Assembly (NCBI RefSeq): GCF_044704955.1
Contig: NC_092006.1
Coordinates: 4,465,451 to 4,528,000 of the forward strand
DNA length: 62,550 nt
Direction of reading: 5' to 3'
DNA from: Pristiophorus japonicus
Taxonomy: Eukaryota
Part shown: piece after piece, positions 41,654 through 56,160 of the stretch
Layout of the letters: every line of letters begins with the position of its first letter
Numbering within the stretch: the first letter of the stretch is position 1
Translations under genes and position numbers: made by a program
The notes under the pieces: generated by a model
Database searches by the model: none
Told to the model about the DNA's origin: nothing
The model's input: the letters and a program-made list of their open reading frames with translations, nothing else

Positions 41654-41916
41654 ATGCAGCGGCGCTGGCTGGTGAAGAGGCTGGGCTGCAAGGTTTGGGG
41701 GTTACCGGTTGCTGGGTGCCCGGGTACACTGGGCACCGGGCCAGGGCTCCCCCAGGACCCACCCAGCCAGGACCAGGGGTCCTTGCCCTACCGGGATATC
41801 CCCTCCACCGGCCGCAGCGGCTGGCTCAACCTCTACCGCCTCTGGAGGAACAATGGATTCCGCACCATGCACCGGGTCATGACGGAAAACTTCAAGCGGC
41901 TGGGACCCATCTACAG
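41654..41916 (+). CDS. CYP11B: CYP11B/C exon 1 (copy 1b, NGFRTMH)
   Basis: ATG 41654, 263 bp, gtcagg donor. Confidence 0.9.
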
Positions 41917-54070: not shown

Positions 54071-56160
54071 ACCATGGTACAGGTGGGACTTTACTCTTTG
54101 GGCAGGAACGCGGACTTCTTCCCCGAGCCCGAGAGGTACGACCCGGCCAGGTGGCTCAACAGTGTCAGGAACCAGTTCCAGGCCTTGTCCTTTGGGTTCG
54201 GTGTGCGGCAATGTATTGGACGGCGAGTGGCTGAAACCGAAATTGGGCTCTCTCTGATCCACGTGAGTTCCCCGCTGACCGTCGAACCCCCTCGCCCCCA
54301 ACACACACACTCCCTGGGCTCAGGGAGCAGATGCACGCCCCCTTCCACAGTCGAATAGCTGCTGCTGTCCGTGTCCGGGTTGACCCGGGAAGGATGCCCA
54401 ACCGACTGGGTACGGGTCACTGTCTGCCTTCCCAGTGAGGTGTCATCTCTGTCCTCCCCTCCCAAAAGCTCCCGTCTCCGTCCTTAAATAGGACCCGGAA
54501 TGGGAGGCCACTCAGCCCCTCGAGCCTGTTCCCCCATTCTGTTCCACCGTGGCTGACTCACGCCCCAATTCCGTTTGGTGCCACCCGTCACCCATTGACA
54601 ATGCTGGCCCCATTATTTCCTTGCTCCTGTCTCCTCCCCTCGCCCTCCCTCCCCTCTCACCTCACCACCCTCCCTCTCCTCACCTCCCCTCCCTCTCCTC
54701 GCCACCCTCTCCCCTCGCCACCCCCTCTCCCCTTCCCTCGCCCTCCCTCCTCACCCCCTCCCTCTCCTTGCCCTCGCCCCCTCCCTCCCTCCCTCGCCGC
54801 CTCCTTCACCCTTCCCCACCCTCGTCCTCCCCTTCCTCTCCTCGCTCCCCTCTCCCCTTGCCTCCCTCTCCCCTTGTCCTCCCCCCCACCCTCTCCTCCC
54901 CTCCCCGCCCCCCCACCGCCGTGTGCCCTTCCCTGCCTCGGGGCTCCTCTCTTTCCTCGACACCTCCCCCCCCACCCCCCCCCCCCCCCCCTCTCGCCCT
55001 CGGTAGTTTTTCGGGAATATTTGACCACATGAGGCATCACAGCAGGACCCCCACCCTTTGTTGCCGATCCAGGGGGCTGTGGGGGATCCATACTGCCACC
55101 TTGCTGGGATCCACTAACTCAGCACACCGCCCTCCCCGCCCCCCGCCACAATTACATAGAAAATAGGAGCAGGAGTAGGCCATTCGGCCCCTCGAGCCTG
55201 CACCGCCATTCAATATGATCATGGCTGATCCTCCATCTTAACACCATATTCCCACTTTCTCCCCGTACCCCTTGATGCCTTTTGTGTCTAGAAATCTGGC
55301 TTTCTCCCTCTTAAATATATTCAGTGACTTGGCCTCTACAGCCTTCTGTGGTAGAGAATTCCACAGGTTCACCTCCCTCGGAGTGAAAACATTTCTCCTC
55401 ATCTCGCTCCTAAATTTCCTACCCCGTATCCTGAGACTGTGTGACTCCTTGTTCTAGACTTCCCAGCCCCGGGGGAAACATCCTCCCCACATCCAGTCTG
55501 TCCAACCCAGTCAGAATTTTATACCTTTCAATGAGATCCCCTCTCATTCTTCTAAACTCCAGTAAATACAGGCCCAGTCGACCCAATCTCTCCTCATACG
55601 TCAGTCCTGCCATCCCAGGAATCAGTCTGGTGAACCTTCGCTGCACTCCCTCTGTGGCAAGTATATCCTTTCTTAGGTAAGGAGACCCAAACTGCTCACA
55701 ATACTCCAGGTGCGGTCTCACCAAGGCCCTGCATAACTGCAGTAAGACATCCTTGCTCCTGTACTCAAATCCTCTTGCAATGAAAGCCAACATACCATTT
55801 GCCTTCCTAACTGCTTGCTGCACCGGCATGTTTGCTTTCAATGACGGGTGTACAAGGACACCCAGGTCCCTCTGTACATCGACACTTCCCAAGCCATCGC
55901 CATTTACCTGAGCTATTCAGCTACAATTGCCATCATTTTAACCATTGAGTTGCCGTCTAACCCAATTTGTATATTTATTTTCCCCCCGGCAGATTTTGAG
56001 AAGGTTCCAGATTTTCTCGAACTCCAGCGCTGATGTTCAAGTGACCTACGGATTCATTCTGATGGTGGATATTCCTCCCCTGATCACCTTCAAGCCCATC
56101 CACCAACAGAAGCAGAGCCTGTCGACCGAGGCTCAGGACCGCTCCCAACTCCAGGCCTAA
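41654..56160 (+). CDS. CYP11B: Mitochondrial cytochrome P450, CYP11B/CYP11C (steroid 11-beta-hydroxylase) type, 529 aa, 9 exons
   Basis: Exons 41654-41916, 43595-43750, 46010-46209, 47311-47514, 50381-50541, 52216-52382, 52945-53023, 54071-54262, 55993-56160 join in frame (1590 nt). Basic leader, [53 protein letters not shown] favour CYP11B/C over CYP11A. Confidence 0.9.
43595..43750 (+). CDS. CYP11B: CYP11B/C exon 2 ([12 protein letters not shown]...[10 protein letters not shown])
   Basis: ctccag / gtaagt, 156 bp. Confidence 0.93.
43830..45800 (+). repeat. L2 3' fragment with two internal arrays (about 57-bp unit 44045-44800; about 37-bp unit 44865-45490)
   Basis: L2 ORF remnant [13 protein letters not shown]...[14 protein letters not shown]; units cctaactcgcaccgagtcccgctcacccatcacc... 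and tatctctgtaacctcctccagcccctacacccctccc. Confidence 0.88.
46010..46209 (+). CDS. CYP11B: CYP11B/C exon 3 ([18 protein letters not shown]...DLFRFALE)
   Basis: ttgcag / gtgagt, 200 bp; WxxxR motif. Confidence 0.93.
46520..47293 (+). repeat. DeuSINE with 33-bp array; tail ends 17 bp before exon 4
   Basis: Array 46590-46985; tail gctatataaatgcaagt. Confidence 0.85.
47311..47514 (+). CDS. CYP11B: CYP11B/C exon 4 ([10 protein letters not shown]...[11 protein letters not shown])
   Basis: ttccag / gtgcgt, 204 bp. Confidence 0.92.
47622..49220 (+). repeat. DeuSINE with about 39-unit 33-bp array
   Basis: Array 47622-48918 then Deu core and tail. Confidence 0.9.
50381..50541 (+). CDS. CYP11B: CYP11B/C exon 5 (HQSIMQ...[10 protein letters not shown]...[13 protein letters not shown])
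   Basis: ccccag / gtgagg, 161 bp; I-helix. Confidence 0.92.
51030..52095 (+). repeat. Diverged minisatellite with core (c/t)gacctctgaacccc in CYP11 intron 5
   Basis: Core recurs every 25-40 bp. Confidence 0.9.
52216..52382 (+). CDS. CYP11B: CYP11B/C exon 6 ([16 protein letters not shown]...[10 protein letters not shown])
   Basis: ttccag / gtaagt, 167 bp; ExxR motif. Confidence 0.94.
52402..52870 (+). repeat. 63-bp tandem repeat, about 7 copies, LF-SINE-like
   Basis: Unit contains gaaatcagccagggttcctgctcctgatcactgcccagtgacccctg, which I recall as LF-SINE core; family call is from memory. Confidence 0.8.
52945..53023 (+). CDS. CYP11B: CYP11B/C exon 7 ([26 protein letters not shown])
   Basis: tctcag / gtaggt, 79 bp. 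Confidence 0.94.
53130..53977 (+). repeat. DeuSINE with 33-bp array
   Basis: Array 53183-53700 then SINE body and tail. Confidence 0.88.
54071..54262 (+). CDS. CYP11B: CYP11B/C exon 8 (heme-binding [10 protein letters not shown])
   Basis: (CT)n-cag acceptor, gtgagt donor, 192 bp. Confidence 0.95.
55155..55890 (-). mobile_element. CR1 LINE 3' fragment in intron 8
   Basis: ORF 55419-55892 QRDLGVLVH...[14 protein letters not shown]. Confidence 0.88.
55993..56160 (+). CDS. CYP11B: CYP11B/C exon 9 (ILRRFQIF...[19 protein letters not shown]...LQA*)
   Basis: cggcag acceptor; TAA 56158-56160. Confidence 0.9.
   Translation: MLRRFQIFSNSSADVQVTYGFILMVDIPPLITFKPIHQQKQSLSTEAQDRSQLQA

What the first reader, a model, noticed from the sequence alone, without database searches (positions are those of the whole stretch)
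41654..56160. Intact CYP11B/C-type gene in a probable cartilaginous fish: candidate for the corticosteroid pathway
Seen: complete 9-exon ORF with CYP11B/C diagnostic motifs. Established: elasmobranchs make corticosterone and the unusual 1-alpha-hydroxycorticosterone; to my knowledge the 1-alpha-hydroxylase is not identified and the 11-beta-hydroxylase is poorly characterised there. Inference: this gene, buried in GC-rich repeat DNA that is hard to assemble, supplies 11-beta-hydroxylation and, since CYP11B enzymes are often multifunctional, is a testable candidate for further hydroxylations. The taxon is inferred only from TE content.
Basis: partly seen in the sequence, partly recalled or inferred. 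Interest (0 to 1): 0.75.

Follow-up and report, generated by a model that had tools for sequence, protein, structure and literature searches.

The report
Shark steroid 11-beta-hydroxylase gene, already catalogued
This is the ordinary, already annotated shark version of the enzyme that finishes corticosterone and cortisol; a few shark-and-ray-specific changes near its active site make it worth one cheap test as the missing maker of their unusual stress hormone, but that role is unlikely.

Summary
The gene is real: nine GT-AG exons give an intact 529-aa mitochondrial P450. It is not hidden. It is letter-for-letter the public 'cytochrome P450 11C1' of the sawshark Pristiophorus japonicus, seven other elasmobranch orthologs are annotated, and dogfish interrenal cyp11b1 primers match its exon 7. 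The tree places it inside CYP11B/C (100/99); grouping with CYP11A is rejected. Steroid 11-beta-hydroxylation is inferred from orthology; I found no enzyme assay for any elasmobranch ortholog. The 1-alpha-hydroxylase is still unidentified (PMC13678717). Elasmobranch orthologs share pocket-region changes (Val at human Ala313, no Pro322, no Pro491), but Val313 recurs in gar, bowfin, reedfish and kangaroo rats, enrichment is weak (p 0.09), and CYP11B presents the steroid's beta face to the haem. Extra 1-alpha activity: about 7%.

The parts
41654..41916 (+). cyp11c1 coding exon 1 (copy B): basic N-terminal leader (likely mitochondrial presequence, inferred) and start of the P450 domain
   Evidence: N-terminal 40 aa hold 5 R/K and 2 D/E, and Heterodontus and Hypanus orthologs begin at the equivalent Met
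43595..43750 (+). exon 2 (W124, R128, F138 = human CYP11B2 W116, R120, F130)
46010..46209 (+). exon 3 (WxxxR C-helix motif)
47311..47514 (+). exon 4 (F and G helices; W268 = human W260; window-only G218R at a column that is Gly in 91 of 91 other CYP11B/C)
50381..50541 (+). exon 5 (I helix, [10 protein letters not shown]323 = human A313). Public isoforms X1, X3, X4 use an acceptor 36 nt upstream (50345), adding 12 aa
52216..52382 (+). exon 6 (S332 at human P322; ETLR motif)
52945..53023 (+). exon 7 (YPIGVT...NYHIPAG); published dogfish cyp11b1 qPCR primers match here with 4 and 1 mismatches
54071..54262 (+). exon 8 (PERY, haem Cys458)
55993..56160 (+). exon 9 (F495/I496 = human F487/I488; V499 at human P491; stop TAA)
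37907..38500 (+). second copy (A) of exon 1 (coding 37979-38241) with 72 nt of upstream and the start of intron 1, lying inside a 33-bp minisatellite; 10 differences in 594 nt, 4 of them within 9 nt (GFRT to GIHN); used by public isoform X3
41294..41653 (+). upstream in-frame open stretch with three in-frame ATGs (41294, 41384, 41438); public isoforms X1/X2 start at 41294 (+120 aa, pLDDT below 50, partly overlapping high-copy repeat sequence): probably 5' leader rather than protein
25531..28552 (+). upstream neighbour: three-exon complexin-like gene ending in a CAAX-like CPLM
   Evidence: (Synaphin 36.1 bits on exon 2)
2940..14735 (+). further neighbour: 3' part of a CLK2-type kinase gene (start approximate; last exon 14550-14735)
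   Evidence: CLK2 108 bits, CLK3 86 bits

Best explanation
This is the shark ortholog of CYP11B/CYP11C1, the mitochondrial steroid 11-beta-hydroxylase. Shown: intact gene, family placement, P450 fold. Inferred from orthology and general knowledge of CYP11B: the protein enters interrenal mitochondria by its basic leader, takes electrons from adrenodoxin, binds 11-deoxycorticosterone (or 11-deoxycortisol) with the beta face towards the haem and gives corticosterone (or cortisol). It therefore supplies the 11-beta-hydroxyl of 1-alpha-hydroxycorticosterone, but not the 1-alpha-hydroxyl, which comes from another enzyme or route.
For: Identity with public 'cytochrome P450 11C1' isoforms. ML tree of 39 proteins: window inside an elasmobranch clade (100/100) inside CYP11B/C (100/99), apart from shark CYP11A; AU test rejects window+CYP11A, p 5.6e-102. 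Identity 57-72% to 7 elasmobranch CYP11B/C versus 47-48% to 2 shark CYP11A. F at the F130 column as in 83 of 84 other CYP11B/C, where 28 of 28 CYP11A have L. Of 13 pocket residues named in passages of PMC5742115 and PMC3848474, 10 are identical; two of the three differences (F231L, M309T) are the usual non-mammalian state. AlphaFold model: 427 residues at pLDDT 90 or more, RMSD 1.9-2.7 A to human CYP11B1/B2 chains. Dogfish cyp11b1 is in the interrenal transcriptome and rises with star after a salinity challenge (PMC13678717); its primers match window exon 7. Complexin lies directly upstream here and is joined to CYP11C1 in 7 of 120 listed shark, ray and teleost models: same neighbourhood as teleost cyp11c1.
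Against: No enzyme assay of any elasmobranch ortholog was found (searches; open-licence library only). The best PDB sequence and fold hits are a reconstructed ancestral CYP11A1 (54%), and Foldseek ranks human CYP11A1 level with CYP11B2, so fold and best hit alone do not separate the subfamilies. Elasmobranch orthologs changed 12 of 178 otherwise conserved columns, 6 of them in pocket-forming segments, so product spectrum may differ from bony-fish and human enzymes. The window protein has 8 changes at columns at least 93% conserved, among them M119E and G218R.
Confidence: 0.87

Rival explanations
1. The elasmobranch enzyme is bifunctional: after 11-beta-hydroxylation it rebinds corticosterone in a flipped pose, allowed by a remodelled pocket (Val313, loss of Pro322 and Pro491), and adds the 1-alpha-hydroxyl.
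For: V at the A313 column in 8 of 8 elasmobranchs versus 2 of 84 other CYP11B/C and 0 of 28 CYP11A; S/T for P322 in 8 of 8 versus P in 82 of 82; V/L for P491 in 8 of 8 versus P in 83 of 83 and 28 of 28. 6 of 12 clade-replaced columns lie in pocket segments, against 1 of 17 in ray-finned fishes (Fisher p 0.011), 1 of 5 in sauropsids, 0 of 0 in amphibians. In a docking passage, Ala313 and Thr318 surround the C18/C19 methyls (PMC3848474). Single substitutions change the binding mode and product in the bacterial 1-alpha-hydroxylase CYP260A1 (PMC6153880, passages). The 1-alpha enzyme is unidentified.
Against: V313 also occurs in gar, bowfin, reedfish and kangaroo rat sequences, lineages not known (my recall) to make the steroid. 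S315 is shared with mammals and coelacanth; S/T322 and L382 match CYP11A or human and may be ancestral. Enrichment within elasmobranchs is only p 0.089, my pocket windows were drawn after seeing the columns, and that count had no mammals. The window protein lacks two changes the other seven share (H331, V497). The angular methyls (beta face) point at the haem; 1-alpha is on the other face (stereochemistry, my knowledge). An early study found no 1-alpha-hydroxylase in ray interrenal tissue and current work favours a bacterial step (as summarised in PMC13678717). No chimaera sequence was found for the key contrast.
Confidence: 0.07
2. In this species the gene is intact but under relaxed constraint and has reduced or altered activity.
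For: End branch 0.33, the longest among the five shark rows (0.15-0.33); window-only changes M119E and G218R at conserved columns; long ATG-rich leader and duplicated exon 1.
Against: No stop or frameshift in 529 codons, all splice sites canonical, haem and I-helix motifs intact; confident model; one contig of run X5 covers exon 1 and ends at its donor (weak); Narcine has the same branch length.
Confidence: 0.05
3. The gene is a CYP11A side-chain cleavage enzyme.
For: Top PDB hit is an ancestral CYP11A1 reconstruction; a whale-shark fragment 71% identical is named side-chain cleavage-like.
Against: Tree and AU test; CYP11B/C-type residues F130, N306, A320, G379; true shark CYP11A are only 47-48% identical. 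The whale-shark fragment carries elasmobranch CYP11C motifs and looks misnamed.
Confidence: 0.01

Closest known systems
Pristiophorus japonicus 'cytochrome P450 11C1' isoforms X1-X4 (UniRef100 UPI00398F7B6B, UPI00398F8C03, UPI00398EE3E8, UPI00398F27AC)
   Same: The same gene: X2 residues 121-649 equal the window product; X3 equals exon 1 copy A plus exons 2-9 with the upstream exon-5 acceptor.
   Different: None of the four listed models is the plain 529-aa form: X1/X2 add 120 N-terminal residues, X1/X3/X4 add 12 residues at exon 5, X4 lacks exon 1.
Elasmobranch CYP11B/11C1 models (Heterodontus XP_067878845, Mustelus XP_078064643, Hypanus XP_059837136, plus Stegostoma, Pristis, Carcharodon, Narcine) and dogfish interrenal cyp11b1 (PMC13678717)
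   Same: One clade, 57-72% identical, shared V-G-S I-helix motif and loss of two prolines.
   Different: Window has L where the other seven have H331 and V497; window-only M119E and G218R. Known only as models and transcripts in what I could search.
Teleost Cyp11c1 and tetrapod/human CYP11B1 and CYP11B2 (PDB 4DVQ, 6M7X)
   Same: Same subfamily clade, fold and most pocket residues; complexin upstream as in teleost models.
   Different: 44-53% identity; A313V, P322S, P491V. Aldosterone is reported absent from cartilaginous fishes (PMC8015242, passage).
Bacterial CYP260A1 (steroid 1-alpha-hydroxylase of Sorangium cellulosum)
   Same: Shows that a P450 can hydroxylate intact steroids at 1-alpha and that few residues set the pose (PMC6153880, passages).
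   Different: Bacterial CYP260 family; not compared by sequence here and not among the 24 PDB hits at E up to 1e-20.

Membership tests
Cytochrome P450 superfamily | Haem-binding FxxGxRxCxG, ExxR, PER(F/Y), I-helix acid-alcohol pair; P450 fold | tested here: met
   (330.6 bits)
CYP11B/CYP11C (steroid 11-beta-hydroxylases) | Falls in the CYP11B/C clade, apart from CYP11A | tested here: met
   100/99; AU p 5.6e-102 against CYP11A; LG+G4, 39 rows, 5 invertebrate outgroups
CYP11B/CYP11C (steroid 11-beta-hydroxylases) | More than 40% identity to named family members and subfamily-typical residues (F130, G379, A320) | tested here: met
CYP11B/CYP11C (steroid 11-beta-hydroxylases) | Nine coding exons with the CYP11 intron pattern | tested here: inconclusive
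   Nine exons shown; agreement of exon sizes 156/200/204/167/79 with human CYP11B is from recall, no ortholog DNA was available
CYP11B/CYP11C (steroid 11-beta-hydroxylases) | Mitochondrial import and adrenodoxin dependence | not testable with these tools
   Basic N-terminus is compatible; no targeting predictor or assay run
CYP11B/CYP11C (steroid 11-beta-hydroxylases) | 11-beta-hydroxylation of deoxycorticosterone or 11-deoxycortisol | not testable with these tools
   Needs an enzyme assay
CYP11B/CYP11C (steroid 11-beta-hydroxylases) | Interrenal expression | tested here: inconclusive
   Shown for the dogfish ortholog in print; for this species tissue is not on record
CYP11A (side-chain cleavage) | Monophyly with CYP11A; L at the F130 column | tested here: not met
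Elasmobranch corticosteroid 1-alpha-hydroxylase (hypothetical) | Converts corticosterone to 1-alpha-hydroxycorticosterone | not testable with these tools
   No reference enzyme exists to compare with
Elasmobranch corticosteroid 1-alpha-hydroxylase (hypothetical) | Pocket changes confined to lineages that make the steroid | tested here: inconclusive
   P491 loss and P322 loss are near-confined among CYP11B/C (one primate fragment also lacks P491), V313 is not; no chimaera sequence found

The most novel reading that the evidence does not exclude
The elasmobranch CYP11C lineage remodelled its pocket (Val313 next to the haem, loss of Pro322 in the I helix and of Pro491 in the beta-4 loop) so that one enzyme makes corticosterone and then, with the steroid flipped, 1-alpha-hydroxycorticosterone. 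The 1-alpha-hydroxylase sought since 1966 would be the 11-beta-hydroxylase itself, with no need for a bacterial partner.
Probability: 0.07. Interest if true: 0.85.

Novelty: already known. Interest (0 to 1): 0.3.

Why it matters
As a gene it is ordinary and catalogued. Its value is practical: how sharks and rays make 1-alpha-hydroxycorticosterone is unresolved, the 11-beta step is needed in any proposed route, and I found no assay of an elasmobranch ortholog. The corrected 529-aa model and a short list of lineage-specific residues give a ready expression and reversion experiment. A negative result would close the simplest one-enzyme hypothesis; a positive one would settle a question open since 1966.

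Tried and rejected
No whole genome is held, so paralogs and other 1-alpha candidates such as CYP27 genes could not be searched. No chimaera CYP11B/C appeared among the 120 listed of 644 hits or the 21 short hits; the blank is no evidence of absence. No RNA holder listed among 7 runs; run X6 had no cover over the exon and X5 none over the intron: not used as evidence. Contigs cannot give copy number, so the DNA runs do not decide whether exon 1 copy A is real. An SF-1-like site (recalled consensus YCAAGGHCR) lies at 41422-41430, but the window has 5 matches against 8.65 expected and X5 contigs cover the site, so it was rejected as promoter evidence. Val313 as a marker of 1-alpha chemistry: rejected as specific. 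Best-hit and fold searches do not separate CYP11A from CYP11B. Paper searches without useful result: (0 papers). My first exon boundaries were off by one base, corrected. The scan's earlier notes held nothing on this gene. No supplements were read; those of PMC13678717 may hold the dogfish sequences.

Full report
Observation. I located the exons by their splice sites and joined them by coordinates. Nine exons from 41654 to 56160 give 1590 nt and a 529-aa protein; all 8 introns are GT-AG and there is no internal stop. The P450 motifs are intact. The locus is 59.8% GC and 43% tandem array, with LINE reverse-transcriptase remnants nearby and 10 assembly gaps upstream.

Identity. Exon 8 found a 100% identical public protein named cytochrome P450 11C1 of Pristiophorus japonicus. 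Its residues 121-649 equal the window product, and four isoforms are on record. A full-length search gave 644 hits, 120 listed, led by seven other elasmobranch proteins named CYP11B or 11C1; a chimeric Heptranchias model and a whale-shark fragment add two partial cases. In a 39-row ML tree (LG+G4, 505 columns; 24 CYP11B/C, 9 CYP11A, 5 invertebrate outgroups, picked by me from the hits) the window sits in an elasmobranch clade (100/100) within CYP11B/C (100/99). Forcing it with CYP11A costs 132 log-likelihood units, AU p 5.6e-102. No vertebrate CYP27 or CYP24 sequence was in the tree; rat CYP24A1 scores 215 bits against 427-447 for mammalian CYP11 chains. The AlphaFold model is a confident P450, but Foldseek ranks CYP11A1 and CYP11B2 alike, and the best hit is a reconstructed ancestral CYP11A1, so the assignment rests on the tree and on residues. 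A complexin-like gene lies directly upstream, and 7 of the 120 listed hits are complexin-CYP11C fusion models from a shark, a ray and five teleosts, which points to a shared neighbourhood. A CLK2-type gene precedes it.

What is in print. PMC13678717 (I read the abstract, introduction, start of methods, section 17, half of the discussion and passages) reports cyp11b1 in the dogfish interrenal transcriptome, a rise with star after low salinity, and states that the route to 1-alpha-hydroxycorticosterone is unknown, with a hypothetical 1-alpha-hydroxylase or bacterial conversion as the two ideas. Its primers match window exon 7 with 4 and 1 mismatches, so that transcript is very probably this gene's ortholog. 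PMC5009984 (whole text) also calls the C1 enzyme unresolved. I found no enzyme assay of an elasmobranch CYP11B/C in five searches; the library lacks most subscription journals, so this is a limited claim. Passages only were read in PMC3012610 (zebrafish CYP11C1 is CYP11B-like), PMC6764463, PMC6153880, PMC5742115, PMC3848474, PMC8015242 and PMC5375646.

How it most likely works. Shown: intact gene, subfamily, fold. Inferred: mitochondrial import, electron supply from adrenodoxin, and 11-beta-hydroxylation of deoxycorticosterone or 11-deoxycortisol in the interrenal gland. Human numbering was transferred through the alignment to PDB 7M8V; a constant offset of 23 reproduces the residue types named. 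Of 13 pocket residues named there, 10 are identical; F231L and M309T are the common non-mammalian state; only A313V is restricted. I put this reading at 0.87.

The extra-activity idea. For it: among 8 elasmobranch, 84 other CYP11B/C and 28 CYP11A rows (the chimeric P0002 and unnamed P0056 left out, the four isoforms replaced by the window product), elasmobranchs have V for A313 (8 of 8; 2 of 84; 0 of 28), S/T for P322 (8 of 8; P in 82 of 82 with letters) and V/L for P491 (8 of 8; P in 83 of 83 and 28 of 28). They replaced 12 of 178 otherwise conserved columns, 6 of them among 48 pocket-segment columns; ray-finned fishes replaced 17 of 172 with 1 of 39, sauropsids 5 of 162 with 1 of 43, amphibians 0 of 162. 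The contrast with ray-finned fishes has p 0.011. Against it: the enrichment within elasmobranchs has p 0.089, I drew the pocket windows after seeing the columns, and mammals were absent from that count. With further sequences added, V313 recurs in gar, bowfin, reedfish and kangaroo rats, S315 is the mammalian state, L382 matches human and CYP11A, S/T322 matches CYP11A, and one primate fragment lacks P491. The window protein itself lacks H331 and V497 of the other seven. In a docking passage the C18 and C19 methyls face the haem beside Ala313 and Thr318; reaching 1-alpha would need the opposite face (my knowledge of the stereochemistry). CYP260A1 shows that such flips can follow from one substitution, so the idea is not excluded. 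I put it at 0.07.

The second exon 1. A 594-nt segment at 37907-38500 is 98.3% identical to 41582-42175. It begins at a short G-rich overlap with a 33-bp minisatellite; the repeat elements flanking the two copies are only 72% and 89% alike, like unrelated copies of the family. That fits a local insertion into a minisatellite better than two haplotypes laid in tandem (inference, about 0.65; misassembly in the arrays remains possible). Four of the 10 differences lie within 9 nt (p 0.0012 under random placement, a post-hoc test) and change GFRT to GIHN in a variable segment. Public isoform X3 uses this copy. In DNA-type runs X1 and X3 a 696-nt contig matches copy B without differences across the donor; in run X5 (kind not on record, another sample) a 566-nt contig covers 41378-41917, carries exactly those four letters of copy A together with the upstream sequence and the 41604 base of copy B, and ends at the exon-1 donor. 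So the variant exists outside copy A, as an allele or a conversion tract, and X3 may be a mapping product. The end at the donor is a weak hint of splicing from one run.

Verdict. Observation confirmed; family assignment confirmed; gene already catalogued and its ortholog already measured in interrenal tissue. What remains is a cheap and well-defined experiment on an old open question, with a low prior. Interest 0.30; novelty: already known.

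Noticed in passing
window 37907-38500 versus 41582-42175: Exon 1 is present twice; the upstream copy sits inside a 33-bp minisatellite and differs by a cluster of four bases that change three residues. Run X5 shows the clustered variant on the upstream sequence of the main copy.
   Followed up: partly
window 25531-28552 (+); proteins P0003, P0012, P0053, P0069, P0089, P0104, P0122: A complexin-like gene with a CAAX-like end lies directly upstream; 7 of 120 listed homolog models fuse complexin to CYP11C1 in a shark, a ray and five teleosts. 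Either conserved read-through or a recurrent annotation error.
   Followed up: partly
window 2940-56160: Order CLK2 - complexin - cyp11c1, with an HCN gene joined to the CYP11C end in the Heptranchias model P0002. From recall, human CYP11A1 lies near CLK3, CPLX3 and HCN4, which would make CYP11A and CYP11B/C whole-genome-duplication twins. Not found in one paper search.
   Followed up: no
window 41260-41653: Seven ATGs lie upstream of the main start, three in frame; X5 contigs cover this stretch. A long leader could control translation or add an extension that masks the import signal.
   Followed up: partly
window 50345-50380: An alternative exon-5 acceptor 36 nt upstream adds 12 residues inside the predicted G helix in three of four public isoforms.
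   Followed up: no
proteins P0285 and P0002: Apparent misannotations: a whale-shark fragment named side-chain cleavage-like carries CYP11C motifs; the Heptranchias HCN4-like model ends in CYP11C exons 7-9.
   Followed up: partly
window exon 4 (residue 218) and exon 2 (residue 119): Window-only G218R (Gly in 91 of 91 others) and M119E at conserved columns.
   Followed up: no
window 37455-53701 and elsewhere: A SINE-like element family carries an internal 33-bp minisatellite of 6 to 38 copies; eight arrays lie between 37.4 and 53.7 kb.
   Followed up: no
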